A stretch of DNA of 64,000 nucleotides from Owenia fusiformis. Taxonomy: Eukaryota. Positions 3,574 to 58,720 of the stretch are shown here, in pieces (positions within the stretch are counted from its first letter, which is position 1; the number at the start of each line of letters is the position of its first letter). The DNA lies in assembly GCA_903813345.2 (NCBI GenBank), contig CAIIXF020000001.1, positions 4,588,001 to 4,652,000 on the forward strand, read 5' to 3'. The notes under the pieces were generated by a model. It did not search any database. It was not told the DNA's origin and was given only the letters and a program-made list of their open reading frames with translations. A program made the translations under genes and the position numbers.

Positions 3574-3654
3574 TTTTGTTTTTTCTGAAATGAGTAAATG
3601 AAGTTTAGACTTGCAGTACTTCCTGCAATTCATATCGATAAGCCTGGGGTTCAT

Positions 3655-3939
3655 TAGTTCAACAAGTTAAACCCAATACCACGGCTTTCATTTATTAATC
3701 TGAATGTTCTTGTTGCCGTGGTTGGGTTTAACTTCCGTGCTATGCTTTCATTTGTTGCAAATTCTCACTATCAGTTATTAATTAAACGCGCATGGAATTC
3801 CATGCGCTATCATAGGCCACCATTAAATCTTTTGCATCAAGGGCCGAATCGGCACGGACGTTAAACCTAGGGCGGGCCACAAGATATGTCAGATAAGAAA
3901 TATATAAAAGGCCCAGACTAGGTTTAACTTGTTGAACTA
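3655..3939. mobile_element. MITE with 19-bp TIRs and 9-bp TSD (Mutator-like TSD length) in Hsc70 intron 1
   Basis: TAGTTCAACAAGTTAAACC (3655-3673) / GGTTTAACTTGTTGAACTA (3921-3939); perfect direct repeat GGGGTTCAT at 3646-3654 and 3940-3948; internal palindrome GCGCATGGAATTCCATGCGC. Confidence 0.88.
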
Positions 3940-5138: not shown

Positions 5139-22688
<17,550 letters not shown>

Positions 22689-26136: not shown

Positions 26137-28516
26137 GATGTCCGTTCCTTTGTAGTTGATCAGCTTAGTGTAGTATACCCCATGCAACTTATTTACAATA
26201 CTATACTTGAGAGGAATGATACTACTACAGTATATGAACTTAGTTCCACTTGTATTCAGTTTAACATTTATACTGGTACTATCCTATGTAATGACAGCTT
26301 TGGCATTATACACATCAAGTATTGATCACTTATATTTGTAATTCATTAAAAGTGGTACTTATAATCTTGGAGTTCTGCATTGATAATACTCTTATTTAGT
26401 TTAGTTTGATAATTGAGTCACTGTCAGAATTAAGTACTAATTAATATTTTTCATTTATTTTTTTCATTTATCATAATCACTATCAATTTTCTGATATGTT
26501 TCTCCATTGTTGTGTTGGCTCTTGATGCAAAAACTCCTTCTTTCAGTTATTGATATCCAGCAGGTATATCAAGTTACAGTATTTTTAGCCCTTTGATGTT
26601 CTTGCACTAAGCACTTTTATAGATTTAAAGATTTAAAACTTGAGATTTTTTAAAACATTATTTGAACTATGGGCTAACAAATACCAGAATAACATAACGA
26701 AGTGAATGTCTGTTTGGATATTTGAAAGAGATATGTTAACATTTGACGTATCCGTTTAGTTCCTTTAAGCTCTTTAAAAGATTTATCAAAGTGCAATATT
26801 TTCTTAAGCTAGGGTAATATGACAAGGTTGTTTGGTTAAGTGAATAGATTGTATAATTAAAGGATTATATCTGACTTTTGCCAGTTGGTTCGTGCTAATC
26901 TTTAAGTGCCAGCGCTATATACACAGACTTGATAGCGCAATTTCTATCTCTTGCATTCCTTTGTTGGGCACAGGGGCAATTCTGACCTCAGAAATAATAT
27001 CATTACAGTGTTTTATTACACTTTTGGCTCCAGACCACTTGAGTTTGTTAAATATTTGAAAGTCTTCTTGTTACTTGGGCTGACTCCATGAAGGATACTT
27101 CAAAGAGCTGCATAAGTATATGACCCTTTGATACTGTTTCTATAGCCTGTGTATCTTTTATAACTGGAATTATCAGTGGTGCACAACATCAAGTCGAAGA
27201 TTGTCTAACAAATGATACCAGTTTAGTGCACATTATCATATATTTAATATATTTATATATTTAATTTGTAGTATGTGCACCAGACTGATACAAACATTGA
27301 TATTGGGCGCCATAAGGGGTACCATAAAAAAGTAAATAAGTACTGCAAATTAACCATATATGCACTTAAAGAAAGTTGAGTCTTTTATTTGGTGCTGCAC
27401 ATCAGACTGCTATCCATATGGATGCCTTAAGTCTTGTCATAAAATGATTATTGCACTGGCATCTCAATGTTAAACCATCTTTAAATTGATACTATGCATC
27501 AGACTGATATTTGTATGGATTGCCATTAGATGGGACGATGCATAGTGCTGGTATTTATTTTATTATTTTAAGCTGTAAAAGTGAATGCAGCATAGGCTGA
27601 GAATCCATAAAAACTTACAGCTCACATTATATTTCAAATAATCTGCATTCTTGAATACATAACCAATTATTGTTATTTTAACCCGAGTATTTTAAGATTC
27701 AGTGAAATTAATGATGCGCAGCATTAAGTGTTAATTTTAGGGAACAACACCTGGAAGGAATGATCATTCCATAATGCATTGAGTCATGGGCTTAAATTCT
27801 TTTCACACATTACAGAATATTCTTTACCATGTCACCTTTCACATTTCAAGATACAAAATCACTAAAACAACATTTTTTCAATGAAACTTATTGCAAGGGT
27901 CAAATTGGCAAAGCATCAATTTCAATCTGTAGAGTCAACTTGTCACCTTGACATCCACATAAGGAGTGACCTTGAATGTGGTGATATAATGCACTGCAGT
28001 TATATGAAATACTGTGTACGGATTGGCTGGAACATGGGGCCCGCCCACCCCTACCCTTGGGGCCAAGAAAATAATTTTAGGGCCCAAAAAAGTAATTGGA
28101 CCCAAAAATCTGAAGGGCCTCATTAAAGTGTGACTTTTTGGGCATAACTTGGCCTTTTAGGGCTTTTTTAGGCCAAATTATCAAAACATCATGGGCCTTA
28201 ATTATTTTTTTAATTGATATGTACCCCCCTTTGTTAGCCTCTGCATAAGCCAGTGCTTATTCAGGTCAAATGTCATATGGTTAGTGTTGACCAATGACCA
28301 TTCAAACTATGAAACCCCTGCAAAATTCATATATTATGAAGATCTATCAAATATCCTTTTCAATTATTCATAGATGTCGCCATATACCTATGAATTATAG
28401 GTGGCGTACTTCTCAAGATGGTGGATTGAAAATAGAGAAATACTTTTTTCTGGGACATTCGATTGAATTTTGATGGATTATGAATGTTAACAAATGTAGG
28501 TAACGAATTTGCAGCG

Positions 28517-31500: not shown

Positions 31501-34500
31501 ATTGATAACTATGAAAGTGGGCGTGACCAGCTTTATTTTGGCACCAAATTCAAGATGTTTCAAATCAAAATGGCCTCGCAAGACGAGGTTGAAATATCGG
31601 CAATTTGATACTGATATGGTCTACGATAGATCAAAATTGACTGCCCCGCGTCACATGTCACGTGAGCCTATATTTGTTGAAAAATGAAAGAGATAGTGAC
31701 ACTTTTTAATCATAAGTTAATACCAATATTACAAGCACGTATCTATTTTTTTCATTATATATTTATTTCTTCATTATACATACATTTGTTTTATACTACA
31801 TTGATTCATTTTTGCAAAACCTTTGCTATTAGATCTTTAACACAGGTGTTCACGACGTGTGTTCACTGAGGCAGATTTTACTGTAGCTATTATTTATTGT
31901 TTCAGAAATACTCTCATATGAGAAATGACCAAAGAATAGACCCCATTCACTACACTAAGGACCCGTTATGGTGGTTTGGCCTGATACTGATGACAGTTGG
32001 TGAAGTGGGCAACTTTGCAGCTTATGGCTTTGCCCCTGCTTCTCTTGTAGCCCCACTTGGGATGACTACTGTTGTAGGTAAGATATTTAAAGTAATTCCT
32101 TCGAACATTCCTACTCGCTTCAATATTCATATCAGTCAATCAGGCTGGGCCAGAAAAATGATCTTAGGATTATCAATAGAGTCAAAATGTATTTATTTTA
32201 CACAATGTCGTAAACGCTCATCACTCTGTCTTGTCTTGGACTTGATATTCAACATCAATTTATGTTGTTATTAATAGGCATTTATTGTTTGGACTTTCTT
32301 TCCCGTAGTCAAGGTGTAGAAAAGCGTATAGTATTTTCAGAGTACATGCTTAATTAAATGGGGGATTTCTTGTTTTGTTTCAGCAAACATGTTCATTGCA
32401 GTTATCATGCTGAAGGAAAAACTTAGACCTGAAGATATGTTTGGTAAGAATGTAAATTATAATATTTGAGAAAATGATGTGATGGAACATTTGTTTCACA
32501 CCATTGGTGGGATATTGCCATGATGTGATAGTGATGTAGTGACATTTCAAAGTTGGAATTATGATATTGTCATTCTTGTAATTTCAACCAAATCAAACAA
32601 TTGTGATGATGGTGTTGCGACGTGTCTGCTTTAGCTTGTCACGTGTTCAATGGGATTTGCTTTGCATTGGAATAGTCGCTATCTAGTATTTGATAAGAAG
32701 AATATTTTTATCATTTTTGTGCATAAAATAACGTAACATAATATTCAATGACATAAACAACATATAAATAAAAACACTTTTGTTGTTTTGTAGGTTGTAC
32801 CTTAGCCATTCTTGGAGCTTTTCTTATTGTGAACTTTTCTAAACGTACAGAAATCATCCTCTCTGGTCCAAAGATAGTTGAATTCTTAACACAGATAGCA
32901 TTCATAGTATACATGGTGAGTATTACATATTTCCCATCTTTTATATAAATAGGATTACAACATTAAAACATTTATATCAAAACACTTCAACTCTGAACAC
33001 CTCTCAATGTGAACACTTTTTGGTCCCATTTTTTTGTGTTTAAAAAACCTCAAAATGTGAACACTTGCCTATCCGAATGCTTTTGACTAGTCCCGGTGGT
33101 GTTCAGATTAGACATGTTTTCTTGCATAACAATTATTTGTCTTCTGCCTAAGCTGTACAAAGTTATTTTGAAAATAAGTGTTTTTTCAAGTGTGGGTAAT
33201 AAGTGGGTGTGGGTAATAAGTGTGGGTGATCCACATCCTATTAACAAAAGTTTACCAGCCTGACCTACGTGACCTTCAAGGGGACTGATCAAATTGGTCG
33301 GCAATGATATCTTTAAAGCATTCCTTTAGCATATGTAGAATGACGCTCACAAATATTATTTTATCTTCCTGTTGAAAATGCGGCCCAAATCTAAGAATTA
33401 TCTCTTAATTATATCGAAATTGTTGCCATTTCTAAGAAGCTTTTTCTTGATAAGTTAGATATGAATTCCATTCCTCAAGAGTCAATTCAAAATTGTCCCT
33501 GGCAGTCATGAAATAGATGTAGACATCTATATGTACATTTTTGAATAGTAACGCCATGGTTACATTTGATTGACAGCAACCGTACGGCGGCCGTAGCTTC
33601 CCAAAATCCCAAAATAGGGATAAGCAGCACAATGTAGATTTTTTATTTGAAGGCTTTAGTTGTTCAATATGCACAAATACATTTATAAAGCTATACATGT
33701 AGATGTACTAATTTCCTAGCATCAATATGGGTTGTGCTTACCCCTATGAAACAGGAATTGTTTCATCTCATAAGCATCTGCTGGGTCTTGGCTGACCTTG
33801 CCATTCTATATTGTAAGCCTTTTGCCATCTATTACCATAGTAACATAACTCTAAAGGTGACATATACTGACAATTAATATCTGATTCAATGAATACGAAA
33901 TGATCTTGACGAATATGATTGGAAATAACATGGTATTACCCTGTTCTATTATACATCAGATCTCAAAACCATTCACTTTGTATCCAGTTAGGCCAGTGTA
34001 AGTTAATTATCTTGTTTTCAATCTAAATCAGGTAGATAAAATATATTTATCCCATACTTTCATTTAAAGGGACAGTCATATCTGCTAGGGGCAGAATTGA
34101 TTCAGGCATCTCCTGCAAAAACATTTACAAAATTCACACATTATTAAAAAGATTATCCCCAAATGAAACCTATATACTTTTTATATACAAAATCAAATAA
34201 AACAAATGAAGATTTTGCACTTGGGCTTAATACTCTTTAGGCAATTTTTATAAATGACATCATTTGATTTATGTCATACAATAACTATGATTTTATTATA
34301 TTCCAGGTTGTTGAACTAATAATGTTGACAGGGCTACTAGTTTTGAAGTACAAGTACAAGAAAAACAATGTTATCCTTCTACTGCTAATTACCTCTTTAT
34401 TAGGTTCGTACATTTATATCATTAATTAGGGGTGATGTAATTATGAGTACTTCATGCTCTGCCATAACTGTGATTATTTTATTCATAGTTGACCAACTTG

Positions 34501-43770: not shown

Positions 43771-45875
43771 AACCAGAACAACGGCAACGCCAAAGCGTAG
43801 CGAATCCCATCGAACAGAAATGGCTGGCATTTTTACAAACGAAATATATAGCAAATATCATAAAACAACACACCAGAAAGGCCACCATTTTCAAAATGGT
43901 TAGCCAAGTTGTCATCAGAAGAAAAAATATGCTTTTAGTAGCCACCTATAAAATTTTTGAAAAATCGCACACATGTACTTGTGAAATAAGTAAAAAATGT
44001 AAAAATGACAGCCATTTTTTAAAATGGCTGCCTACTATCCAAAGTGTCATGAGACAGTGTGCAAGGCTCGTGAGTATTCACATATCAAATATGAACAAAA
44101 TCGCTTCACTACTTTTCAAGTTATAGTAAAAACGTAAAAATGGTGGTCATTTTTCAAAATGGCCGCCTACTACCCAAAGTGTCATTAGACAGTGTGCCAT
44201 GCTTATAGTATTCACATATAAAATATGAAACATACCAAATATGAATAAAATCGCTGAACTACTTTTCAAGTTATAGTTAAAACGTAAAAATGGTGGTCAT
44301 TTTTCAAAATGGCCGCCTACTACCCAAAGTGTCATTAGACAATGTGCCATGCTTATAGTATTCACATATAAAATATGAAACATACCAAATATGAACAAAA
44401 TCTCTGAACTACTTTTCGAGTTATAGTAAAAAACGTTAAAATGGCAGCCATTTTTCAAAATGGCCACCTTCTACCAAAAGTGTCATTAGACAATGTGACA
44501 TGCTTATAGTATTCACATATAAAATATGAAACATACCAAATATGAACAAAATCTCTGAACTACTTTTCGAGTTATAGTAAAATACGTTAAAATGGCAGCC
44601 ATTTTTCAAAATGGCCACCTTTTACCAAAAGTGTCATTAGACAATGTGACATGCTTATAGTATTCACATACCAAATATGAACAAAATTGCTTCACTACTT
44701 TTGGAGTTATTGTAAAATACGTTAAAATGGCGGCCATTTTTCAAAATTTTTTCAAAATGGCTGCCTTCTACCAAAAGTGTCATAGGACAGTGTGCCATGC
44801 TTATAGTATTCACATACCAAATATGAACAAAATTGCTTCCCTACTTTTCGAGTTATAGTAAAATACGTTAAAATGGCGGCCATTTTGAAAAATGGCCGCC
44901 TTCTACCAAAAGTATCATAGGACAGTGTGCCATGCTTATAGTATTCACATACCAAATATGAACAAAATCGCTCCACTACTTTTCGAGTTATAGTAAAATA
45001 TGTTAAAATGGCGGCCATTTTTCAAATTTTTTTTCAAAATGGCCGCCTTCTACCAAAAGTGTCATAGGACAGTGTGCCATGCTTATAGTATTCACATACC
45101 AAATATGAACAAAATCGCTCCACTACTTTTTGAGTTACAGCAAAAATCGTAAAATAACGAGTAAAGGCCGCCATTTTTCAAGATGGCTGCCATGTGCTTT
45201 TTTAATATCTACATTTGTAGCTTTATTAACCCTTTCCCGACGTGAATATAAGAGGAAAATGTTGGCTCTGGTGACGGATAAGTAAGAGCAGTTTTTAGGG
45301 GAAAACTGCAAAATACCTACGCCCCGGGACCTATACCCTGAATTTTATCACTGAAATACAATTTTTAGTAAGGATTATCACATTAGAACAACTTGTCAAA
45401 ATTTGGTGTAAAAATACTGAATAGAACTGGAGATATTGTCATTTCATTGATGTATATAGATAAAAATAATGGTGCCAAAAGGAGCCTATCGTCCTGAAAG
45501 GTATAACATAATAGGGCTCCATATGGAGCCTATCGTCGTGAAAGGGTTAATGTCCTTTATAATTTTTTTACACTTAAAACATATTGCTATTACAGTTTTA
45601 CATATTGTACCTAAATTACTGTAAAATCGGCACTAAAATGGCCGCCATTTTGAAATGAGCGGCCATTTTGAAAATCGGCTTTCGAGCAGAACTTCTACCC
45701 CCATAGGGTATATGTGTACAAAATATGAACAAAATCGGGCCAACGGTATTTGAGTTATTGCCTGGATGGACGGACGGACGTACGTACGGACGGACGTACG
45801 TACGGATGGACGTACGTACGGACGGACGGACGGAGGCGTTCCCTATATCCCTCCGAACTTCGTTCGATGGGATAA
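43771..45875 (-). mobile_element. DINE-1/HINE-type element of a second family with ~125-140-bp internal tandem array
   Basis: 12-bp subterminal inverted repeat ATCCCATCGAAC (43804-43815) / GTTCGATGGGAT (45862-45873), terminal hairpins CGAAC-TTC-GTTCG and ACGC-CAAA-GCGT, (GGAC/GTAC)n microsatellite 45763-45833, ~9 units with GGCGGCCATTTTTCAAAATGGCCGCC. Confidence 0.82.
45230..45546. mobile_element. Non-autonomous piggyBac-type element
   Basis: TTAA TSD (45226-45229, 45547-45550); TIR CCCTTTCCCGACG / CGTCGTGAAAGGG; subterminal direct repeat GGAGCCTATCGTC(C/G)TGAAAGG. Confidence 0.88.
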
Positions 45876-46540
45876 CTAAATAAAATGAATTAACAAAACA
45901 TACCATCTTTATCAAAAAGCAGTTGCATCAAATAGTATTCCTAGATCTTGATTAACTCTATGTTGATGATCAACAAATACTTGGACAATTCTGACAAGTC
46001 GTTGTCATAAAATTCATTTAAAATGACACGCCACTAGAAGACGTGTACAAAGTTCAACAGTAATCAACCTTTGCTAGAGGCCCAATCATAATAGTTCAAC
46101 ATAAAATACACTAAAACCTCATGCTACAAATCGAATATGGTATCCAAGACAACACTGTTCTTCGCCTCTTCAAGCATATGTACACATGTTACAAAAACAA
46201 GTTATCTCAATGCGCAAAATTGTGCACTATAATGTTTTAATATGAATTGATTATATCTATTTTGAGGTAAACAAAGTGCCAACTCATTCTTGACCAGCTT
46301 TAATGAGTCAATATATAGAACTGGACATATCACTAAGAATCCTGGTATTGTTTATTGTTTATTTCTTTTTACCATTTGCCAATTTTGTACAAGGTTGCCA
46401 AGTTAAATCTTTCTCAATAATGAGTCATGATATGTTTTTCCTAAAGTCAGCCAATCTTCTAAAAATGGTAAATTCACTAAATAAAACCAGTTTACAATAC
46501 ATGTATATGCAAGTTAGAACAGCTGTATTATATAAATGTT

Positions 46541-46690
46541 CAACAAATAATATTGCCTGGTCGAAATTAAATTCTGTATTCTCCAACACAATAATATTGC
46601 CTGGTCTAAATTAAATTCTGTATTCTCCAACACAATAATATTGCCTGGTCTAAATGAAATTCTGTATTCTCCAACATAATAATGTTGCCT
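46541..46690. repeat. 44-bp tandem repeat x3 in RTF2 3' UTR
   Basis: TATTGCCTGGTCTAAATTAAATTCTGTATTCTCCAACACAATAA at 46551, 46595, 46639. Confidence 0.9.
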
Positions 46691-46738
46691 GTTCCATCCT
46701 GCCCTCCTTGAATGTATAATATGTATGATAGAGTCTAC

Positions 46739-49700
46739 TCAGTAATATAATGGGTTCATGGTCACCCAATGTGCAGTTTTGGCTTTCTTCCCAGCTTCAC
46801 TTGTGGTGAATAGAGATTTAAAAGCATTAGAAGCTTTAGGATCATTTTGAATGCTCCCATCTTTTTTAAGTTTGTCTTCTGGCTTGTTATTGGTCAATTT
46901 GGATTTGCTATCTTTTTTCCCATTGGTCAGTTTTGATTTTGGGTGTGTTCCATTGAGAGAAGAGCTTGTTCCTGGCTGTGGGTCTAGCTTGGCTTGTTTG
47001 CTTGATGGTCCCTCATCTGAAAAAATATATATCAGATGTAAGGGATTATCTTAGTTTTCAGTATTACAAGGGGTTTGCTAAATATCTAAAGATACATATC
47101 TAATGTTCAATTGGTGTTTTCAAAGAGGAATTGTGACATGGTCTCCTTATTATACTATACTTGAGTGGGTTTGGGGTAGATATCACCTGGGAATATATAT
47201 CATACCTGAGGAGCGGGCAGGATATATTGTATATGTCCCACCCAAGGCCAAATGCAGGTATATATAATATATCCATCCCACTCCCGGGAATTTTTCAATA
47301 TAATTGTAAATATAATTATGAATCTGTCGAGTCAAATTCTGTGAAAACATAACCCTTATATATTTGAAATCAATATAGAACTCATATTTCTTGATAATCT
47401 TATCCTTGGAGAGTGTGATACTCATTTGCCTAAGAGTGATTGATAATCCCTGGTCTGGATTTTTATAATTCCAAGATGACTGATTGTCAATGGTTTTTCA
47501 TAATTTTCACCAAAGGATCTTACCTGCTACACTCAGACTGGATTCTGCAGCTTTCTTTTTCTTAGATTTCTGCAAAAAGAATAAAAAGTCATGTAATATC
47601 TAAGACACACGGTACTTATCAGCATAATTACCAATTCGAAAATTGGTAACTGTATAAGCTGTGAACAAAGTCAATATCACCTGGTTTTTATTCGTTGATA
47701 CAATACCTGGTCTGTACTAAGTGTTTCGTTCAGTGCTAACTGCTTAACCAGAAGTAGGAAATGAAGTGACAATTGAGTTATCATGTTCGAATCGTAATAT
47801 AGACCTCAATTTAGGTATTATATTGAGTAATAAATACCTTAGGGGTAGGTACAAAAGCATTTGAACCCCTCACTCCCCTCCGTCATTCGTAATACAAAAA
47901 ACGTTTGTTACTAGCCCTGCAATATTAGTTGATATAATACCTGCTCTTCAGTCTATATTTCTTAAATACCACTCTCTATTTTTGAATACATTTCTTAATT
48001 CAATCTTTCATTTCTTCAAAGAGTGTAAAATTGTTGAAAAACAATAACATAACGTACTTTCTCCAACTTTGCCTTGAGTCTCCGTGCATCCATTTTCATG
48101 ACCATCTCATCCACATCATCTTCTGTGCCATTCAGGACAACAATATCTGCATCAGTAACAGCAGCCCCACACTGGAAATATACATGAACAATGGTGAATA
48201 AGCTTATTCATAGTTTTAATCGCTTGACTTCTCATTATTTTTCATATTTTTGCCAATTCTGCACAAATTGGAATATAGCAAGCATCATATCAATGCTATC
48301 AACACTTTCTAAATATAATTTGTGAAGATTGGATTAAGACTGTCAAAGATCAATTTTAGTGAAAAACTCTATGGCATATTATGTTATCCCTTTAGATCAT
48401 TGGTCCAATTTTTTGTGCAAAGAAATCTTGTCACTCTAGTAAGTCAAGAGGTCTTTAAGAAATTCCCTGATAATATCTGGCTTTTTCCTGGCTTTAAACT
48501 TTATCTTTAAACTTTTTATCTGACACAATAATTTTGGTTTGTGAAAATACATTGACATTAACATTAACTTTTTCCAATCAAAAACTTCCTTCATTGAATT
48601 TTTCCTTGTCATAAAAATGATAGGTTCAGTGATAGAAGTTACTCAATCTATACTACTCAATGCTAAGTGAACCTTAATGAATTAGATAATAAAATAGAAT
48701 TTTAATGTTTGATTATTAGCATAGCAAGTTGACTACTTATAGTGCTAAAGGTGGTGTGAACCTTTCATGGGCAAAGATGAATATAAGTAAGAACCACATC
48801 TTCTTTACGATTATGATGTCAATAAAATGAATAAGCATGCCATTACAGTATTGACTAGCAATCAAAATGCATTGAATGACCTAATATATCATTATCAATT
48901 GATAAATAACACTGTAATTGCCTTACACATAACAAGACATTAACAGGTGGCAACATGTGGCTCATTCACATACATAGTAATATTAAAATCTAATTTTTTT
49001 TAATTTTACATAATCACTGTCTCAATGAGAAAAGCATTTAATATTTTAATATGAAACTGAATTTTCATCACGTCTTACTGTTTATAGAATGTACAGTTTA
49101 ATTAAAAATCTATAACTGCAGTCTGACATGTTTTATAGACATTGATTTTTCCATATCAATCTTACAACCAGCTGGTAAAATGAAGATCTCAAATGTAAAA
49201 GGTAAGATATGAAATCAATACAAAATCATTGTTATTAACAAGGTGATTCAATTAAATTCCTTTAAAATATATTTTCTATTGCACTAGATTGCAGTAAATA
49301 TTGTGGTGTGTAATGGCAAATGCATGACTTGAGCGAATTAATCTGAAAAACATAACAAAATTTTATAATTAAATCAATTCAAAGTAGGATAAATGAGTCA
49401 AAACATATATATTGAAAGCTCAATAAAACTGTTTATTTTTAGTTGAGTATTCTCGGATCACACGAGTTCTTATCATGATGCTGTATTTAAAACGCTTCAA
49501 AGCAAGGATGCTTCTTGTGACTATTATATGTCTCTCTCTGGCCTTACTCATGTACAACATATTCTGGAATGACCCTATTCATGCAAACCCAGAATTTGCA
49601 AAATGGCAGAAGATTTTCGATGAGAGCAATAAACCTCGAGGGGTTTTTGTCGCAAAAAATGACTCTTATGATGCAATTGATCATGACGATAATGTGATTG

Positions 49701-52700
49701 ATGATCCTATTGATGAGCCGTTTATTTCACGAGTCAAACAATTTAAACTGAATTGTTCAGGAATAATTAACGGTGATGCTCAAGTTATAAGTGAAACTAA
49801 AATTGCTCTTCATGGGAGTAACAAGGAAGTGATCAGTAGCGATTATTTCATCACCGCAACAAAGACATGTAGAGAATTCCGCAAGGACTTTGGCTATAGC
49901 AACATCACAGTTAGTGACATAGAAAAGGAGTTCCCTATAGCTTATATACTCTCTGTGCACCATAATGTAGAACAAGTGGAATTTCTCCTCCGTAACATAT
50001 ATTCATCTCAAAATCTTTACTGCATTCACTTGGATAAGAAATCTACAGAGAGCTTTCAGGATGCTATACAATACATAGCTAGATGTTTTGATAATGTCAT
50101 GGTCTCCTCTAAACTTGAAAATGTAGTGATCGGAGGGCCTGGGAGACTGAAAGGTGAAATCAACTGTATGCGAGACCTACTTAATAAAGATCAGCAGTGG
50201 AAATATGCAATTAACCTTGCGGGGACAGACTTCCCATTGAAAACCAAAGAGGAAATCGTTCAACATTTGAAGACTTTGAATGGACAGAATGACATTGCAG
50301 GAGTTGAACAGTTTGATGAATCAAGAACAAAATATGTCCACAAAATGGTGGGATCATCTGATAACTGGGTCGTTGCAAAAACTGATGAGCTGAAACAACC
50401 ACCTCCTTTAAATATATCATTATACTCAGGAGTGGAATACTATCTTGCTAGTTACAAGTTTGTACAGCATGTTGTGTTTGATTACCTAGCAACAAGTCTT
50501 TTAAAGTGGTCCCTAGATACATTATTCCCCGAGAAGACATATTGGGCAACATTACAGCGTCAGCAAGGCACCCCAGGTGGTACCCTCGACACTACTTGGA
50601 GGACAATGGCTCGTATTATGAAACTGAAATCTACAGAGGGGAAATACAATCCTCCATGTGAAGGCATGTATACTGGTAATGTATGTGTTCTGGGTGTAGA
50701 GGACTTGCCCTATATAGCAAATCAAGACAGGTTATTTGCTGGTAAGCTTGACTTGTACTATGACCATTATGCACTTTATTGTATGATGGAGAGACTAGCT
50801 CCTAGCTTTAGACAGATGAACAAACACATAGTAGCTGATCAACAAGCCATTCCGAGGCTTCTAGTTGATAAACCAAATGAAGCAAATAATGTTATAAATC
50901 CTGGACATGAAGTAGTGAACCCTATAAGGGAAAACAATGTTGTTGAAGTTAATCTATAGATGGTCGAAAGGATTGGAAAATTAAAATGTTTATCATCATC
51001 CAATCAACACGCTTCATGAATATTCATGGACACTATATAAAATGTCAGGAGCTTGATTTCATTTACAATTTTACTTGCACCAAATGAAAAGAAGTTCCTC
51101 TGTACATAACCTCTTTCACATAGATTAGCATGTGCCTGTACCTGTAGCAGAATCCTTAAAAATGGTTTTAATTCTACTCTCTTTGAATAAGAGATCTTTT
51201 AAACTAGCCTTATTTAGGCAGATTAGGTCAAACAAATTAAGCTTAGTCAATGAAAAATGCAGTTGCAGAATATCATTTCATACTCAAGCTCCAATTGAAG
51301 GCCATTACAGATACATATGGGGTCATTAAGATCAGCATCAAAACTTTACAGCTGTCTTTTGTAGTGAGAGGGTCATTATTATTACTGGCCTCTTGGTTTC
51401 AGGATTCTGCAACAGCTGTGTTCGTTCATGACCAATTAATCTACTTTCATTGTTGCATGTACAATCACATTTTATTGACAATCAATTTTTAATAGAACTA
51501 TGAAACGCTTTAGAATCAAGTATTCTTTTTTATTATATACCCAATATGTAACACTAATCCTGATAGGTCAATACCTAGTCACATGTCCCGAAATAGATTT
51601 ACTATCTCCCTTCGAAAGTTATATTCCCTCAAATGAAAGAAGCGGGAATATACATTTGAACTATTGCCCGCTGAGGTCACGATTGCAACTTCTATTACCC
51701 TTGGAAACGTCTGCGCATCATCAATGCGCAGATGAAAAACAGATAAATTGAGGATAAGCACAAACACAAATCAGCTCCGTTCACCATGACAGACGAGCAT
51801 GAACGAAACAATATACGCAATGTGGATAAAGTTCCCTAAGCTCTATACGTCTGTCTAATTTCAAGTGTTATGATAATCTATTTCACGTGTTAAACGCCAT
51901 TGAATTTGTCAAGTGAGAGTCTCAGAAATTTCTTAGGAAAAAAATTCTGTTGAGCATATTATGACGGACCTGGGGAGGGTTTTTAAGCCCTTTTGGCCTT
52001 CGGGGAGGAACGGGACAAGAGTCAGTATAGGGTATATAATAAAACAAATAGTGACTGCCTAATTTCGAGCAATAGTGTAAATGATTTCCCCTTGGGAATA
52101 TCCTCTGTAATGTACTATTCCCTCAGCCTATTTGTCACTATTTGTATAATATATGTTGAGTTCATCTAGGGTATAAAGCATTATATTTGTGAATAGTCAA
52201 TATGTAGTGTAAAGTAGTGGTAGTCTTAATCTAATTCTTAAATAAATATTTCACAAGTTTATCTAATTGTCTTCTATAAGATTTGAATATTGTTTTGTCT
52301 GAAAGTATTAAGCATTTTACCCTTGATTTCATAAATTAATACTTTACATCGCAAAGCAATGCCTTCCATTGTATTATAAAGCAATGCTTTCCATTGTATT
52401 ATAAAGCAATGCTTTCCTTTAGATCATTGTCTATCATAGAAAATATAACGTTCAAAATGAAAAAAGGTCAATGAGCCAATAGAGAAAACATTCATTTGGC
52501 AGATAATAAAATAGTGCATCAATTACCAAAGTGCCATCTTTTAGAAAGTGATACTTTTGTAACAAGTTCAGAATGTTCTATTAAACAAAAAGGAGATATT
52601 TAATAATCATTCCACACCTCAAACTGAATTGGAAATTGTAATCAATAGACAATACTGAAGTCATGGAATTGCTTTATCTCCCTTGCATTTGTAATTCTTA

Positions 52701-55700
52701 ATGTTATGGTCTAATGATTTTTCTACTGTCTACTACAATTTTAATGAACATAATGACTGTGAGTTACAGTGGATAGAAACAAGATGAGATATCAAGCATA
52801 AAATGACTCTAAATTCAAGGAGGCAATTCAGCTTTACACTATCATTTTTATATGTGTGTTTATATAGATAGTATAGAACATATTAACTTTATTCATTGCT
52901 CATTCCAATACTCTCAACTACATTGTGTTTTGGATTTACAACAATACAAACCACTATGACATGTCCTTGTGTGTATGCATATATGGAGAAACTTCCTTAC
53001 AAACCACTATGACATGTCCTTGTGTGTATGCATATATGGAGAAACTTCCTTACAAACCACTATGACATGTCCTTGTGTGTATGCATATATGGAGAAACTT
53101 CCTTACAAACCACTATGACATGTTCTTGTGTGTATGCATATATGGAGAAACGTCCTTACCTTATGGCAGACATTTTCTTTGATTTCCTTGATGGCTCTCT
53201 CAGATACAACACATCCACAGCTCCACACAAAACAGAACCTGGTTTAATAGAAAATTGTAGATTAAAATATGTGTGTGAACAACTTACTAATGTGGACATT
53301 TTAGATACAAACCACTCACAGTTTCATATAAAACATGATAAAAGAGAAAAAAATATTTGTTTCTCTTATATGAACAAATCTTTAATGTGATAAAAGTTAG
53401 ATGTTAACACATAATCTTACAAATGAAATGTTTCTTACTTGTGTTTTCCATTCATCTCAATGCCTACAACTGGGCAGATGTACCTAGAGGTGTTAGTGTC
53501 AATGTAGGCATCGCCTTTCTCATTGTCTAGCTTCTTGAAGGCAGGATTGTCAGACAGGTTTAGGGCTTTCACATCCTTAAATGAAATGTATTAGCATTAC
53601 TGATAAGAGTGGAAGGGGGACAGAGCCTATACAGGTATTGCCTTTTTCATTGTTTGGTTTCATTATCAGATATAGGGCTTTTACATCCTTAAATGAAATG
53701 TACGAGGGTTCCTTATAGCATGGGAGGGGGACAGAGTCTAAGTAGGCATTGCCTTTTTATGTGATTACTTCAAGGCAGGATTATGAAGTTTAGGACTTTT
53801 ACATACAATGTACTTCATAATATCATTGGCTTTAAAACATCTATTAGGGTTGGAATTAGTGTTGTCGCGATTAATCGATACATCGTGATATACATCGCCA
53901 AAGCTGGTTCTGGCGATGCATCGATGTCTGAAACAAAACATCGATGTTTTTGAAAAAAATAAATTTGCTAAAAATCGCCCTTTCTTATCTTATTTTGACG
54001 CAAATTGCTTACCTTTTTTCATGTCTTATTACATTTTCCAATGTTTTCTGATATTCTTTCGCTTTATAACTGTTTTAGCTAGTCGAAATGAACCATTAAT
54101 CTAAAAAAATTACTTTACTTTCATTTCACCGTTACTAGAAGTTCCCGGATGTACCACCGTACTCTTATTAATTTGTTCTGTTCGGTATTTTAGTGCATTA
54201 GCGTTCGGTATTTTAGTGCACTTTTCTCTAACTTTTTCTCGATGTACATCGCGATGTGCATCGATGTTTACTACTGAAAATTGCCGATGTATCGATGTAC
54301 GATTATGCCACATCGCTACAACACTAGTTGGAATTCATAAAGTATGGTAGTGGGGATGGTGATGATTGGTTCAATATGGGCATGACATTTCATCCTTGAT
54401 CAGCTGTAGATATTTCACATCCTCAATGAAATGAAATGAAATGTGCTTTGTGCAATTGTGCTTTACAAAACTAGTTAACAAATGTGTCTCTTTAAACCAC
54501 AAAGGATGGGGACTAAGGGAGTGCTCCATATATACTTCATACTACATTAAAGAACAATATTATGTTGTTTAGTAATATGAAACCCACCTTCAATCCTCTA
54601 ATATGACTGAAGTTTGCAGCAGATTCAAATTTTGTCTTATCTAAGAGATACTCCAATACAGACTCTTTATTGTACAACCTGCAACCAAATCTAATACAGT
54701 AGAAACACAAAACACATGTTAGTATAACAAAAAGGTTGAGAAATACTGTGTTAGAAAAATTGGATAACCCAACATGATCATTCTGTAATACTTGATATTT
54801 CAAATGAGTGATTCATAGAATTTGCAACAAGGGTTCAAAATACAAATAAAATATGAACATATAATGATGGTACTTATACTTTAGTTTCACACGTTAGTGC
54901 CAAATTTTACCGTTCCTTTATTTTCTGTCAAATGCGACTACAAATATGGTAATGCTTCTCTTACCTCCCTAGTTCACAGGCCACTATGGGAGATCTGAGA
55001 GGCTCCTGAGTTATAGCACAGTGCTTCCATTTGGCAGCTAGCTCAGCTTCTTTGTCTTTCTGAAATGAAAAGATAGTATTGAAATTCAAAAATCCTAGTG
55101 TCTTTGAAAAGGTATGGATCAAAATTACATGGTAAAAGGTGTAGAGAATGCAAATTTTTACCTTTGTATTCAGAGCCAACCTTTTCCAGCATCGGCCTTC
55201 GCTCAAAATAGAGATGGCTTGACAAAAATTGCCAAATGTCATAAGTGTAATTTATGATTGAAAACAAAAACGATGGTGACAGACATTCATGGTGACAGAC
55301 ATTCATAGTTGTAGAATATTACAGTTTGCATAGTTGTTTATTCATCAATTATATCAATGTTCAGTGTACAGGCAACTGACACCCATGCAAGTGTATATAG
55401 TTACAACTGATTATATTACATAATTGTATTAATCAAGATGACAAGATATAAAACTGTTCTTAAAGATAGAAATATTGAATTTGACATACTGAAATTTTAA
55501 ACAATAAGTGAATAACAAATTGATGTGGACATAATTACACCATATGCACCAATTTCAAATGGAAGTGGTAAAGATGAGCCTGTCATGACAACTAATGTCT
55601 TCTGAACAGCTTAGTAATATTGCATAGCTGAGTGCATACACATATAGTCACATAAATTACATAGCCATTTCTCATCATCAAAATTCTGATCGCAGGCAAA

Positions 55701-57054
55701 CATTCATTTATCCAAGATGTACAAATGTCATTCGTGTGCATGAATATATTTTTCTAGACATTATGGCACAATTGTCTATAGATTTTTTTTTTCAGGTTCA
55801 TCTGCTTGCCTTTGAAGCAGTTTAAAGGAATTCTATGCGACAAAAATAACAAAATATTTTTTGATTGATAAAATCATGGATTATAAATCTGAAAGTGTTT
55901 TCTCTTCTTATAACATTGGGTAAGACTACAATATAAGTCAAAGTGGTTTAAACTTTATATTGGGACTTTAAATGAGGTGTTTGTGTGACACTTTTTCTAG
56001 ATTACATACGAAATCAATGAAGTCACATATAGTTGTAAGCTAGAGACTCGAGTAAGCTAGGAGTATTCAGTCCAAAAGTTTCTTTTTTCTTTTCCGTGAC
56101 CACTTTATTTAGTCAAGTGAACTCGACTTAATGTTGTTATTTCACGTTTCTTTTTGACGATTTGGATATTTGTTTTTTATTTTTGTTTTCAACATTTGCG
56201 TCGAGGATATTTAGCCCAGTATATTGCGGTAAATGCTTTTCTGCCCTCTATGCCCAACAAAAGTTACACAGATGAGATAATGGATCCAATGCTTCAACTA
56301 GCATGTATTAAATCTTACCTTAAATACAGGAAACACTTGATAATTGAAGAAATGTAATCATTTTCGTATATGTTTGAACCAATTTCCAATATGGCTCTCA
56401 AGGTCACTGAATACAGTCTAAATGTAAAACCATGCAACCAAAACGAAATCGTAATTATTTATTACAAACATATCTGTTTAGTGTTTTCGGTTTCTTCACC
56501 CTCTTTGGTGTCCGGAGAGGAGATAATCGCCAGAAGCCGCCTTCCTCCCCCTGTACAACTTTTTCGAGTGGAAATCTTGATCTCAATATGGCTGCCGTAG
56601 TTTATTGTAATTTCGTTTTTCGTTTCACCTAAACTTTTATTTTTACACGATCATCACCCAGAATGCATCTACACTTTGGGAAAAAAATTGTTTTCAGAAA
56701 AATACTTATACTTCTTCAATTATCAAGTGTTTGACGTGTGTAAGGTAGGATTTAATACATTATAGATGAAGAACTTATTCTAATACATCATTTGTGTGAT
56801 TTTGGTTGCCGAAACAGGCCAGGAAAGCGTTTCCCGCAATTTCCAATAAGGTAATTTTTACGACCCTAGTATGCAAGAAAATAATAGAAAATAAATATCC
56901 AAACTATCAAAAAATAACGAGAAATATAGCATACGATGGTCGGATTTATATGACTAACTTTATTAGGCGAGACTCTTGACCTCACCTTTTCTGGTTTCTT
57001 CTTCAATTTTACAAGTTCATCTCTCGTCGGTATTGTTCCTCCATCGCATCCCAT
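46739..57054 (-). CDS. RTF2: Replication termination factor 2 (RTF2/RTFDC1), 302 aa, 8 exons
   Basis: Exons 56986-57054 (MGCDGGTIPTRDELVK), 54965-55059 (WKHCAITQEPLRSPIVACELGR), 54588-54678, 53439-53575 (YICPVVGIEMNGKHK), 53160-53238 (WSCGCVVSERAIKE...CHK), 48058-48171, 47524-47569, 46739-47016 (AFKSLFTT...AHWVTMNPLYY*); 909 nt in frame, all GT-AG. Confidence 0.93.
49475..50959 (+). CDS. GCNT7: Core-2/I-branching beta-1,6-N-acetylglucosaminyltransferase family (GT14) protein, GCNT7-like, nested antisense in RTF2 intron 5
   Basis: 494-aa single coding exon; N-terminal signal anchor; EFPIAY, YCIHLDKKS, INCMRDL, WKYAINLAGTDFPLKT, WATLQR, PPC..VC motifs. Probable 5' UTR intron 49202-49442. GCNT family certain; GCNT7 assignment inferred from position and recalled sequence features. 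Confidence 0.85.
   Translation: MMLYLKRFKARMLLVTIICLSLALLMYNIFWNDPIHANPEFAKWQKIFDESNKPRGVFVAKNDSYDAIDHDDNVIDDPIDEPFISRVKQFKLNCSGIINGDAQVISETKIALHGSNKEVISSDYFITATKTCREFRKDFGYSNITVSDIEKEFPIAYILSVHHNVEQVEFLLRNIYSSQNLYCIHLDKKSTESFQDAIQYIARCFDNVMVSSKLENVVIGGPGRLKGEINCMRDLLNKDQQWKYAINLAGTDFPLKTKEEIVQHLKTLNGQNDIAGVEQFDESRTKYVHKMVGSSDNWVVAKTDELKQPPPLNISLYSGVEYYLASYKFVQHVVFDYLATSLLKWSLDTLFPEKTYWATLQRQQGTPGGTLDTTWRTMARIMKLKSTEGKYNPPCEGMYTGNVCVLGVEDLPYIANQDRLFAGKLDLYYDHYALYCMMERLAPSFRQMNKHIVADQQAIPRLLVDKPNEANNVINPGHEVVNPIRENNVVEVNL
51530..52152. repeat. Interspersed repeat with inverted termini and adjacent hairpin
   Basis: TTATTATATACCC (51530) / GGGTATATAATAA (52030-52042); internal palindrome TCTGCGCAT-CATCA-ATGCGCAGA; following ACAAATAGTGAC...GTCACTATTTGT hairpin. 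Confidence 0.5.
52947..53159. repeat. 53-bp tandem repeat x4 abutting RTF2 exon 5 donor
   Basis: ACAAACCACTATGACATGTCCTTGTGTGTATGCATATATGGAGAAACTTCCTT; CCTTAC ends at 53000, 53053, 53106, 53159. Confidence 0.93.
53857..54326. mobile_element. hAT-type MITE (470 bp)
   Basis: TIR TAGTGTTGTCGCGAT / ATCGCTACAACACTA; perfect 8-bp TSD GTTGGAAT (53849-53856, 54327-54334); subterminal CATCG/CGATG repeats. Confidence 0.9.
56110..56960. mobile_element. Old foldback-type element in RTF2 intron 1
   Basis: Diverged inverted arms, e.g. TTTGGATATTTGTTTTTTATT / AATAGAAAATAAATATCCAAA and ATTGCGGTAAATGCTTTTCTG / CAGGAAAGCGTTTCCCGCAAT; ends approximate. Confidence 0.6.
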
Positions 57055-58079
57055 GTTGGTTTAGCAATATTTCCTCAGATTTATACAGTAATTATATAAG
57101 TATTTACAAGAAAATAAAAGTTCGTAAAAACAAATAAAATGACAACTCTACTCCGAGTAGATCAGTTCGGTATTTCCGGTTTGCAATAGTCAATAATAAA
57201 ATCAATATCTAATGAATGTTTTCAATATTTATTGAATCATTATGATAAATTGTCATATCAAAAGTTGCTATTGGTCTTACAACTTCCAATAAAACCATGT
57301 TTTTTTGTAATATAAATAAAATGAGAAAGTACTAAAGTTGTGATTGTCACAGTGGAAATCAGGAATTGGGAAAAAAGGAACAGAACTTACGGTAAGTTAC
57401 CTACATATGTTTCTTTCCATATTTTCACAAATATAGGGACGTGAATGGTAAGTTTATTATTTCATACATTCATTCATAGGACCAATGAAGTAATGATTGC
57501 GTAAATTAGTAGATTGAAGCGTAAATTTGCTCTAGAAGTTGAGGTCCAAAAATAAGATAATTTTTTGAAAATATTTTTGCATTGAACTGAAGCAGTAAAC
57601 ATAAGGTGCGGATCCAGGATTTTGTGTTAGGGGGGGCGTCTTATAATAATTGTGAGCGAAGCGAACTGTGTGAGTGAGCACAGCAATCTGTTTGACTGAG
57701 CGAATCGAACGAGCGTGACAATATGAATATGGGGGAGGCAGGGAGTGTGATGCTTTTGTATTAAGTGATGATGATTTTAAAATGATTTTAGAAATTTCAC
57801 ACTACAATTCACATTCACACTACAATTGTATATACTCCGCACGCAAGCACACCTAGTACGAAATATCCTCAAGATGAGTCTGTACTGTAATAGAAGAAGA
57901 AGAAGAAGGGTCTGAAATTGAACACCATTTGCTGCATTCTGACCAATTTCAAAGCGAGAATAGACCATAAAACATGGAACCTGGCCAATCTGAGAGGAAA
58001 AAACATGGAAAATATTTCGGAGAGAGCCTTTTTGAAGTGAACTAAAACAAGGGAGTAAAATTTATTACTTTCACTCACT

Positions 58080-58720
58080 TGTCTGTCTGTCCATCCATCT
58101 GTCTGTCAACAATTGGCCTGTTTTAAAACCTCTGTCGATAGGATTTCCATTTTGAGTTATTTTCGTTTAAAGTCTACATGTATATAGAAAACCCTCCTAT
58201 GACTCCTGGTTCAAAAGCTCGCCTATTTCCAAAATGGTCGCCATTTTTGTGTTGCTATATTCACTTTTGGCCCATTTCCTAGCTTTCCAAATAATTTCAG
58301 GTGTCCTGCTTTGTAAAAAGCCATGTCACTTTAAAGAATTTTGTTTCAAAAGATCAGCAAAAAATTATATCCGTTTTTTTATTTTCAGCCATTTTAGTTA
58401 ACATTGATTTGTCCATCTGTCTCGCGAAATCCACTTTTGAACCATTTGCCTTAAAACCTCTGTTGATAGGATTCCCGCTTTAAGTTATTTTTGTTCAACA
58501 TCAATACAGAAAACTCCCCTATGACTCCTGGTTCAAAACCTCACCATTTTTGTCTCGCGAAATTCACTTTTGGCCTATTTCCTAGCTTTACAAATAATTT
58601 TAGGAGTCCTGCATTGTAAAAAGCCATGTCACTGTAAAGAGCAGTTGTATGAAATAATTTTGTGACAAAAAAATCTGCAAAAAATTATTTCCGTTTTTTA
58701 GCTCGCATGGTGAGCTTTTT
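58080..58720. repeat. Degenerate repeat fragment with microsatellite and duplicated ~300-bp unit
   Basis: (CTGT/CCAT)n at 58080-58107; AAAACCTCTGT.GATAGGATT..., CCTATGACTCCTGGTTCAAAA, TTGTAAAAAGCCATGTCACT each occur twice. Confidence 0.6.

What the first reader, a model, noticed from the sequence alone, without database searches (positions are those of the whole stretch)
48172..53159. GCNT7-like gene nested antisense in RTF2 intron 5: apparently the same arrangement as human RTF2/GCNT7
Seen: a complete 494-aa GT14 ORF lies on the opposite strand inside the intron between the 79-nt and 114-nt RTF2 exons. Recalled knowledge (not checked here): human GCNT7 overlaps RTF2 antisense on chr20q13, with its coding sequence in the large intron at what I believe is the equivalent position. 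Inference: a nested gene pair kept since the common ancestor of this invertebrate and vertebrates, which would imply constraint (shared regulation or trapped enhancers) linking a replication/splicing factor and an orphan glycosyltransferase.
Basis: partly seen in the sequence, partly recalled or inferred. Interest (0 to 1): 0.8.

Follow-up and report, generated by a model that had tools for sequence, protein, structure and literature searches.

The report
Glycosyltransferase gene nested inside RTF2 intron
A complete glycosyltransferase gene sits backwards inside an intron of the replication factor gene RTF2 in this invertebrate, and it is related to the vertebrate GCNT2/GCNT7 pair, so the layout may be very old, but that age could not be checked here.

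Summary
A 494-aa GT14 ORF (49475..50959, +) lies inside a 4988-nt GT-AG, phase-0 intron (48172..53159) of a minus-strand RTF2 gene. Three stranded RNA-seq runs show the gene has 8 exons and that this is intron 5 of 7.

The orthology claim needs changing.
- Vertebrate GCNT2 and GCNT7 are sister paralogues (support 100/99 and 100/100).
- An exclusive ORF+GCNT7 clade is rejected (AU p=4e-6).
- ORF with GCNT1/3/4 is rejected (p=0.015).
- ORF as sister of GCNT2+GCNT7 is not rejected (p=0.079).

So the ORF can be at most a pre-duplication co-orthologue of both genes.

The human layout could not be verified. Papers list RTF2 and GCNT7 side by side in human, pig and cattle, but none I read states nesting. 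No eukaryote genome could be read, so intermediate taxa and intron equivalence remain untested.

New points:
- The protein keeps 47 of 53 conserved family columns and the conserved cysteines.
- It has Lys at the catalytic Glu and Gly at one diphosphate-binding Arg. Mammalian GCNT7 has Gln at both positions.
- No sense-strand reads cover the ORF in the three RNA runs.

Verdict: a real nest and a plausible but unproven ancient microsynteny. Moderate interest.

The parts
49475..50959 (+). Nested GT14 (Branch family) gene: single-exon CDS of 494 aa including the stop. Basic then hydrophobic N-terminus (aa 1-31), catalytic domain about aa 91-442, and a 52-aa C-terminal tail with no homology.
   Evidence: Pfam Branch E=8.2e-41; 241 bits to mouse C2GnT-L; 47 of 53 conserved columns kept. 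K354 lies at the catalytic Glu, G401 at the Arg-378 position, and K424 is kept at the Lys-401 position.
48172..53159 (-). RTF2 intron 5 (4988 nt, GT-AG, phase 0), the host of the nested gene and the largest of the 7 introns.
   Evidence: Splice joint 48171|53160 has 57/47/61 reads in X21/X22/X23.
56986..57054 (-). RTF2 exon 1, coding part (MGCDGG...). The 5' UTR runs to about 57120-57139.
   Evidence: Pfam Rtf2 E=3.7e-9. Joint 55059|56986 and molecule ends at 57120/57139.
54965..55059 (-). RTF2 exon 2 (95 nt).
   Evidence: Rtf2 E=2.6e-10. Joints.
54588..54678 (-). RTF2 exon 3 (91 nt).
   Evidence: Rtf2 E=1.3e-6. Joints.
53439..53575 (-). RTF2 exon 4 (137 nt).
   Evidence: Rtf2 E=8.2e-8. Joints.
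53160..53238 (-). RTF2 exon 5 (79 nt), ending ...ENVCHK.
   Evidence: Rtf2 E=1.6e-8, profile 126-151. Joints.
48058..48171 (-). RTF2 exon 6 (114 nt), starting CGAAV...
   Evidence: Rtf2 E=3.1e-6, profile 152-189. Joints.
47524..47569 (-). RTF2 exon 7 (46 nt).
   Evidence: Joints 47016|47524 and 47569|48058. Frame. Too short to scan with Pfam.
46739..47016 (-). RTF2 exon 8, coding part with the stop codon. The 3' UTR continues to lower coordinates.
   Evidence: Rtf2 E=0.0054. Depth 88-165 over 46068-46935 on the RTF2 strand.
49425..49441 (+). Possible 3' splice site (pyrimidine-rich tract then ag) 33 nt before the ATG of the nested gene. It would imply one or more untranslated upstream exons.
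   Evidence: Read by eye. No RNA support. Inference only.
51276..52143 (.). High-copy dispersed repeat inside the host intron, downstream of the nested ORF.
   Evidence: Depth in the thousands in X3 and reads on both strands in the RNA runs.
52945..53159 (.). 53-nt tandem repeat, 4 copies, that begins at the first base of the intron.
   Evidence: D1. Sequence.

Best explanation
This is a host/nested gene pair. The host is an expressed 8-exon RTF2 gene on the minus strand. Its largest intron (intron 5, phase 0) carries, on the opposite strand, a complete GT14 glycosyltransferase-fold gene with an unbroken coding exon.

The nested gene belongs to the part of the GT14 family from which vertebrate GCNT2 and GCNT7 arose by a vertebrate duplication. 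It is therefore at most a co-orthologue of both.

Most likely (inferred, not shown) the position inside RTF2 is ancestral. After the duplication GCNT7 kept it, while GCNT2 now lies next to TFAP2A. The simplest force keeping the pair together is passive: a breakpoint that would free the nested gene would cut an essential host gene. No shared regulation is needed.

The protein is probably a Golgi type II membrane protein with an intact fold. It lacks the usual catalytic Glu and one diphosphate-binding Arg, so canonical beta-1,6-GlcNAc transfer is doubtful. It was not transcribed in the three RNA samples examined.
For: Shown here:
- ORF and family membership.
- RTF2 exons and the spliced, expressed host.
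- GCNT2+GCNT7 are sisters at 100/99 and 100/100 (names).
- In the 60-row tree the ORF groups with amphioxus, a hemichordate and GCNT2+GCNT7 at 84/97.
- The AU test rejects ORF with GCNT1/3/4 (p=0.015) and does not reject ORF as sister of GCNT2+GCNT7 (p=0.079).
- 47 of 53 conserved columns are kept, rank 19 of 139 for deviations. The ORF region has single-copy depth in DNA-like run X3 (15.6, against 7-19 in other unique bins).
- Residue mapping: K354, G401 and K424 correspond to E320, R378 and K401 of C2GnT-L (alignment; residue roles from passages).

From papers (passages read):
- RTF2/RTFDC1/C20orf43 and GCNT7 are listed together with CASS4, CSTF1, AURKA, FAM209A/B, TFAP2C and BMP7 in human, pig and cattle.
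- A case report describes one ~98-kb deletion touching both GCNT2 and the TFAP2A upstream region (title and abstract start from the search listing only).
- The pairs GCNT2-TFAP2A and GCNT7-TFAP2C fit a duplication of a whole segment.

Recalled, not checked: human GCNT7 lies antisense and overlaps RTF2, with its coding exon in an RTF2 intron.
Against: - The human nesting, its strand and its intron were not verified by any search.
- The tree backbone is weak. With 34 rows the group holding the ORF has only 69/95 and also takes in an echinoderm clade. No starred clade holds the ORF in either careful tree.
- The held tree with ORF as sister of GCNT2+GCNT7 is 5.1 lnL worse, with a borderline p of 0.079.
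- The closest relative is only 43% identical, and the ORF's end branch is long (1.2-1.3).
- None of the other genes I recognised in the window (HSP70, an MCM6-like gene, a NIPA-like exon) is on the 20q13 neighbour lists in those papers.
- No nested-gene mRNA was seen: 0 reads on the expected strand across 49106-51275 in 3 of 3 RNA runs, of which only 6-12% was read.
- 0 of 80 metagenome loci with a GT14 relative had an RTF2-like exon. Most of those contigs are under 6 kb, so this says little.
Confidence: 0.5

Rival explanations
1. Independent, lineage-specific arrival. A GT14 copy (a DNA duplicate or a retrocopy) landed in RTF2 intron 5 in this animal's lineage, and the likeness to the vertebrate RTF2/GCNT7 neighbourhood is coincidence.
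For: - The coding region is intronless.
- The branch is long and no relative is closer than 43% identity.
- GT14 is a large multi-copy family in invertebrates: 2571 representatives at E<=0.001, with many separate invertebrate clades.
- The backbone of the tree is weak.
- Two exact 14-nt direct repeats bracket the ORF, at 48389/52416 and 48684/52501. I expect about 0.2 such pairs by chance (my estimate).
- No other 20q13 neighbour was recognised in the window.
- The scan that raised this finding looked at very many windows, so some chance matches to remembered human layouts are expected.
Against: - There is no poly(A) tract after the ORF or before either downstream repeat copy.
- Single-exon coding regions are usual in this family (recalled), so lack of introns is weak evidence.
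- If the human layout is as recalled, one of 8 human GT14 genes falling in the ~51-kb RTF2 gene has a chance of about 1e-4 (my estimate from recalled sizes).
- The nested gene falls on the GCNT2/7 side rather than with GCNT1/3/4.
Confidence: 0.3
2. Whatever its origin, the nested ORF is a functionless relic on its way to becoming a pseudogene.
For: - Lys replaces the catalytic Glu, which is present in 133 of 139 representatives.
- Gly replaces Arg-378.
- 0 sense-strand reads in 3 of 3 RNA runs.
- Further changes in otherwise conserved motifs: GQDFP to GTDFP, FANKFD to FAGKLD.
Against: - The 494 codons are open.
- 47 of 53 conserved columns and the conserved cysteines are kept. The deviation count of 6 is near the family median of 4 and below both GCNT7 rows, which have 10 and 9.
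- In a second individual (X3 contig, 39 differences in 2451 nt) the only listed gap inside the ORF is an in-frame 3-nt deletion in the tail. Two of that contig's five gaps are not listed and cancel in length, so intactness there is likely but not shown.
- Only 6-12% of each RNA run was read, and the tissues are unknown.
Confidence: 0.15

Closest known systems
Vertebrate GCNT7 (glucosaminyl (N-acetyl) transferase family member 7) beside or within RTF2 at human 20q13.31
   Same: - Same protein family (Pfam Branch).
- Same neighbour gene, RTF2.
- Mammalian GCNT7 also lacks the catalytic Glu (Q in 10 of 10 cluster members) and Arg-378 (Q in 9 of 10; the tenth diverges there).
- In both, the residue before the lost Glu is Glu instead of Asp: PEQ in mammalian GCNT7, PEK in the ORF.
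   Different: - It is not a 1:1 orthologue (AU p=4.4e-6).
- Two other GCNT7 rows (P0063, P0176; species names cut off in the listing) keep Glu and Arg.
- By my recollection, human GCNT7 starts beyond the 3' end of RTF2, so it is not fully enclosed.
- Whether the intron is the same is unknown.
Vertebrate GCNT2 (I-branching beta-1,6-GlcNAc transferase)
   Same: It is the sister paralogue of GCNT7, so it is equally related to the ORF. NCBI names the amphioxus and hemichordate members of the ORF's group 'N-acetyllactosaminide beta-1,6-N-acetylglucosaminyl-transferase-like'.
   Different: GCNT2 lies next to TFAP2A on 6p24, not with RTF2 (listing). The GCNT2 rows keep the catalytic Glu.
Mouse/human core-2 GlcNAc-transferase GCNT1 (C2GnT-L, PDB 2gak/3otk)
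   Same: It is the best solved-structure match (241 bits, residues 91-442). The conserved cysteines and Lys-401 are shared.
   Different: The ORF has K354 for Glu-320 and G401 for Arg-378. A clade of the ORF with GCNT1/3/4 is rejected (p=0.015).
Conserved host/nested gene pairs and ancient metazoan microsynteny
   Same: An opposite-strand gene sits inside a long intron of a broadly expressed host. This is the common layout described for mammalian host/nested pairs (PMC11694760, passage read).
   Different: Most gene overlaps are not conserved even among vertebrates (PMC2151771, abstract start in the listing). This pair was not found in the main text of any paper returned by searches or 66. Supplementary tables, which could list it, were closed.

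Membership tests
GT14 / Pfam Branch (core-2 / I-branching enzymes) | Branch domain above Pfam's gathering score | tested here: met
   140.6 bits against a cut-off of 23.4, profile positions 1-247 of 250.
GT14 / Pfam Branch (core-2 / I-branching enzymes) | Conserved cysteine framework of the catalytic domain | tested here: met
   C94, C132, C183, C204, C231 and C404 match columns conserved in 127-139 of 139 representatives.
GT14 / Pfam Branch (core-2 / I-branching enzymes) | Catalytic base Glu (Glu-320 of C2GnT-L) | tested here: not met
   K354 aligns to Glu-320. Glu is present in 133 of 139 representatives. The residue's role is from passages. The neighbouring residue is E353 where the family has Asp.
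GT14 / Pfam Branch (core-2 / I-branching enzymes) | Diphosphate-binding Arg-378 and Lys-401 | tested here: inconclusive
   G401 replaces Arg-378 and K424 keeps Lys-401. Roles are from the passage. One of the two is met.
GT14 / Pfam Branch (core-2 / I-branching enzymes) | Type II membrane topology (short basic tail, then a signal anchor) | tested here: inconclusive
   The N-terminus reads as basic residues followed by about 19 hydrophobic residues (printed). I judged this by eye and ran no predictor.
GCNT7 orthologue group | Forms a clade with vertebrate GCNT7 to the exclusion of GCNT2 | tested here: not met
   AU test: dlnL 55.1, p=4.4e-6. GCNT2+GCNT7 are sisters at 100/99 and 100/100.
GCNT2/GCNT7 pre-duplication lineage | Branches with the GCNT2+GCNT7 clade rather than with GCNT1/3/4 or other invertebrate clades | tested here: inconclusive
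   The group has 84/97 with 60 rows and 69/95 with 34 rows, where it also includes echinoderm rows. Exclusive sisterhood is not rejected (p=0.079). GCNT1/3/4 is rejected (p=0.015). The AU test on 60 rows did not finish.
RTF2/GCNT7 nested layout | GT14 coding exon antisense inside an RTF2 intron, in this window | tested here: met
RTF2/GCNT7 nested layout | Same layout, in the homologous intron, in vertebrates and intermediate taxa | not testable with these tools
   No eukaryote genome is held and the tool for encoding contigs is closed. Papers give adjacency only.
RTF2 (Pfam Rtf2 RING-finger), the host gene | Rtf2 domain along the spliced product, and real splicing | tested here: met
   7 of 7 scanned exons hit PF04641 in profile order 1-256. 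Exon 7, at 15 aa, was too short to scan. All 7 introns have spliced reads in 3 of 3 RNA runs.
Processed retrocopy | Intronless copy with a poly(A) remnant and flanking target-site duplication | tested here: inconclusive
   The CDS is intronless. No poly(A) tract was found. Two exact 14-nt direct repeats flank the ORF at 3.8-4.0 kb spacing, but not at positions that look like insert ends.

The most novel reading that the evidence does not exclude
The GT14-in-RTF2 nest dates to the bilaterian ancestor or earlier and has been held for over half a billion years. After the vertebrate duplication GCNT7 kept the position and GCNT2 did not. The nested copy has given up the catalytic Glu at least twice in the same way (Asp-Glu to Glu-Gln in mammals, Asp-Glu to Glu-Lys here). 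That would point to a non-catalytic or altered role for the copy that lives inside RTF2, for example glycan binding, or an effect of its antisense transcription on RTF2.
Probability: 0.2. Interest if true: 0.65.

Novelty: new member of a known kind. Interest (0 to 1): 0.4.

Why it matters
If the nest is confirmed in several phyla, it would be one of the few opposite-strand host/nested pairs kept from invertebrates to mammals.

It would also give the orphan enzyme GCNT7 a positional definition: the copy that stayed at the ancestral locus, with GCNT2 as its relocated sister.

It offers a simple case for testing whether nested genes stay put only because the host cannot be broken, or because transcription of one affects the other.

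The parallel loss of the catalytic Glu in mammalian GCNT7 and in this protein suggests why no activity has been assigned to GCNT7. It can be tested with ordinary enzyme assays.

If the nest is not found elsewhere, this is an ordinary lineage-specific nested gene.

Tried and rejected
- **Own genome:** no whole genome is held for the window, so copy number and other GT14 genes of this animal could not be examined.
- **Profile search:** a search with the 16-row alignment A1 returned the same 19 proteins as the single-sequence search and added nothing.
- **Metagenome contigs:** a scan for relatives gave 80 loci. tblastn with 7 RTF2 exon peptides found only chance-level hits (best E=0.17), so 0 of 80 loci have a credible RTF2 exon. 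Most contigs are under 6 kb, so this is uninformative.
- **AU test on the 60-row alignment** did not finish in two 300-s calls. I repeated it on a 34-row subset chosen to keep every named clade.
- **Sequencing runs:** no RNA holder was listed by the index. The three RNA runs I laid were added by species label.
- **Organism:** the HSP70 exon search gave best named identities of 92-93% to bivalves, 92% to a gastropod and 91% to an annelid and crustaceans. That suggests a lophotrochozoan, perhaps a mollusc, but is too flat to be sure.
- **Literature:** searches for the pair with nested, antisense, overlap or microsynteny terms found no statement of nesting. PMC11694760 does not mention either gene in its main text. 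Supplementary tables were closed.
- **Rejected readings:** a 1:1 GCNT7 orthologue, a GCNT1/3/4-type gene, and a chance ORF.


Full report
**The observation**

An ATG-to-stop ORF of 494 aa lies at 49475..50959 on the + strand. It matches Pfam Branch (PF02485) at E=8.2e-41 over residues 155-412. Its best solved-structure matches are the mouse core-2 beta-1,6-GlcNAc-transferase chains 3otk/2gak (241 bits, residues 91-442). Xylosyltransferase 1 is far behind at 61 bits.

On the minus strand the ORF is flanked by a 79-nt exon (53238..53160) and a 114-nt exon (48171..48058), both with canonical ag|...|gt borders. The intron between them, 48172..53159, is 4988 nt and phase 0.

**The host gene**

Laying three stranded RNA-seq runs (X21-X23) on 45200..58200 gave seven minus-strand GT-AG joints:
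- 47016|47524
- 47569|48058
- 48171|53160 (57, 47 and 61 reads)
- 53236|53437
- 53574|54587
- 54676|54963
- 55059|56986

Together with the splice sites in the sequence, this gives an 8-exon gene with a 302-aa product. Seven of seven scanned exon translations hit Pfam Rtf2 (PF04641) in colinear order. Exon 5 covers profile positions 126-151 and exon 6 covers 152-189. Exon 7 (15 aa) was too short to scan.

The host intron is therefore intron 5 of 7, and it is the largest. It falls between ...ENVCHK and CGAAV....

**The nested gene as DNA and RNA**

Run X3 shows none of the seven splice joints and covers introns, so it behaves as genomic DNA. In X3 the ORF region has depth 15.6, like other unique bins (7-19), so it is single-copy at 95% identity.

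One X3 contig spans 48789-51244 with 39 differences and 5 gaps. The only listed gap inside the ORF is an in-frame 3-nt deletion at 50885, in the C-terminal tail. Two gaps are not listed and cancel in length, so an intact frame in that individual is likely but not shown.

In the three RNA runs the five bins over 49106-51275 have depth 0-0.7. All of it is in the orientation of RTF2 pre-mRNA, and none is in the orientation expected for the nested mRNA. Only 6-12% of each run was read and the tissues are unknown. The gene is unexpressed in these samples, but it is not shown to be silent.

A pyrimidine tract followed by ag lies 33 nt before the ATG and could be an acceptor for an untranslated upstream exon (by eye). 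There is no poly(A) remnant after the ORF. Two exact 14-nt direct repeats bracket it, and I cannot interpret them.

**Relationships**

An exhaustive HMMER search gave 2571 representatives at E<=0.001. The best is only 43% identical. Names came from cluster look-ups:
- P0044 and its 9 cluster mates are mammalian GCNT7.
- P0063 and P0176 are also named GCNT7.
- P0097/P0186 (elephant), P0049 (Narcine), P0071 (Polyodon) and P0106 (turtle) are GCNT2-type.
- P0041 is GCNT1, and the P0054 cluster includes GCNT4.
- P0021 is amphioxus and P0026 is the hemichordate Glandiceps.

The trees gave these results:
- **FastTree, 139 rows:** the ORF's 11-row clade is next to a 6-row GCNT7+GCNT2 clade.
- **Careful mixture-model tree, 60 rows:** GCNT7 (99/97) and GCNT2 (100/98) are sisters (100/99). 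They lie in a 20-row group (84/97) with the ORF, amphioxus plus hemichordate, and unnamed rows. An echinoderm clade and the GCNT1/3/4 clade lie outside.
- **Careful tree, 34 rows:** GCNT2+GCNT7 (100/100), GCNT1/3/4 (99/97) and a mollusc/brachiopod clade (98/92) stand. The backbone drops to 69/95 and the echinoderm rows join the ORF's group.

AU tests on the 34 rows gave:
- ORF+GCNT7 alone: rejected (dlnL 55.1, p=4.4e-6).
- ORF+GCNT1/3/4: rejected (12.6, p=0.015).
- ORF+(GCNT2+GCNT7): not rejected (5.1, p=0.079).

The 34 rows were my choice from the 60, made to keep every named clade. The 60-row AU test did not finish.

The reading that fits all of this is that the ORF is not a GCNT7 orthologue in the strict sense, and no invertebrate gene can be. 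It may descend from the single gene that later gave both GCNT2 and GCNT7.

**The vertebrate side**

I could not read any vertebrate genome. Passages from six papers place RTF2 (as RTFDC1 or C20orf43) and GCNT7 in the same short gene lists:
- Human 20q13.31, with CASS4 and FAM209A/B inside 125 kb (PMC12786866).
- Human, with CSTF1 and CASS4 (PMC5446752).
- Human, with RAE1, BMP7 and RBM38 (PMC2851616).
- Human, where only GCNT7 is named, beside AURKA, CSTF1 and CASS4 (PMC3151243).
- Pig, with TFAP2C (PMC13578478).
- Cattle (PMC8908906).

None says that the genes overlap. I hold it at about 90%, and I do not know which intron.

A case report describes one ~98-kb deletion that removes GCNT2 exons and part of the TFAP2A upstream region (PMC5016880; title and abstract start in the listing). 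So GCNT2-TFAP2A and GCNT7-TFAP2C are parallel neighbour pairs. That fits the tree's message that GCNT2 and GCNT7 come from a duplication of a whole segment.

If the human layout is as recalled, a chance repeat of 'a GT14 gene inside RTF2' has a probability of about 1e-4 per comparison (my estimate). Against that, the scan that raised this finding looked at very many windows. Overall I put the ancestral-nest reading at about one half.

**The protein**

Of 53 columns conserved in at least 80% of 139 representatives, the ORF keeps 47, including six cysteines. Its 6 deviations rank 19th of 139, against a median of 4. The two GCNT7 rows deviate at 10 and 9 columns.

One deviation is the catalytic base. 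In the alignment to the 391-residue C2GnT-L chain, chain index plus 37 gives Glu, Arg and Lys at 320, 378 and 401, as published. On that numbering the ORF has K354 at Glu-320, G401 at Arg-378 and K424 at Lys-401. The residue roles come from passages.

Glu is present in 133 of 139 representatives. All 10 mammalian GCNT7 sequences I hold have Gln at the Glu position. Nine of the 10 have Gln at the Arg position, and the tenth diverges there. The two other GCNT7 rows, and the amphioxus and hemichordate rows, keep Glu and Arg.

In both the ORF and mammalian GCNT7 the residue before the lost Glu is Glu instead of Asp. Whether that Glu can act as the base is open.

The N-terminus looks like a type II signal anchor (by eye). 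Residues 443-494 have no counterpart in relatives.

**The rest of the window**

Besides RTF2 I recognised the following:
- HSP70 exons (1973-3666, minus strand; confirmed).
- A LINE-type reverse-transcriptase ORF (5506-7302).
- MCM6-like exons (about 10.0-20.4 kb; named from memory).
- A 594-aa ORF (24499-26283, minus strand).
- A NIPA-like exon (31870-32274).

None of these is on the 20q13 neighbour lists in the papers above. The HSP70 exon is most like bivalve sequences (92-93%), but only slightly more than other protostomes. The animal is probably a lophotrochozoan, and I would not say more.

**Verdict**

The nest is real and well documented here. The nested gene is a conserved-fold GT14 member on the GCNT2/GCNT7 side of the family, with an altered active site and no expression in the samples seen.

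The proposed deep conservation is coherent and moderately likely, but it rests on an unverified memory of the human locus and on a weakly resolved tree. It can be settled in an afternoon with annotated genomes.

If true, it is a new example of a known phenomenon (ancient microsynteny of a host/nested pair) rather than a new kind of thing.

Noticed in passing
proteins P0044, P0167-P0175 (mammalian GCNT7), compared with P0063 and P0176: All 10 mammalian GCNT7 sequences have Gln at the catalytic Glu (SPEQ instead of SPDE). Nine of the 10 have Gln at the Arg-378 position. Two other GCNT7 rows keep Glu and Arg. This may bear on why GCNT7 has no assigned activity.
   Followed up: partly
window 52945-53159: A 53-nt tandem repeat (4 copies, 98-100% alike) starts at the first base of RTF2 intron 5. 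Each unit junction recreates a GTAAGGA donor-like motif on the RTF2 strand. Among the joints listed, only the one next to the exon is used.
   Followed up: partly
window 53849-54326 (RTF2 intron 3): A contig of run X3 joins 53848 to 54327 and skips a high-copy repeat (depth about 36,000 in that bin). This looks like a transposable-element insertion that is present in the window but absent in that individual.
   Followed up: no
window 43993-45169 and 45200-46067: There is an array of 135-151-nt units containing the palindrome-like AAAATGGCGGCCATTTT, about 8 copies. The adjoining region is very heavily covered in the RNA runs, with 'goes back 537-538' joints typical of repeats.
   Followed up: no
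window 48389-48402 / 52416-52429 and 48684-48697 / 52501-52514: Two exact 14-nt direct repeat pairs bracket the nested ORF in the same order. I expect about 0.2 such pairs by chance. No poly(A) tract lies next to them.
   Followed up: partly
window 24499-26283 (minus strand): A 594-aa open frame with a Cys/His-rich C-terminal part. I did not search it, and its family is unknown to me.
   Followed up: no
window 1973-3666 (-), 5506-7302 (+), about 9997-20405 (+), 31870-32274 (+): HSP70 exons (confirmed), a 598-aa reverse-transcriptase ORF of a LINE-type element, MCM6-like exons and a NIPA-like exon. The last three are named from memory of those families.
   Followed up: partly
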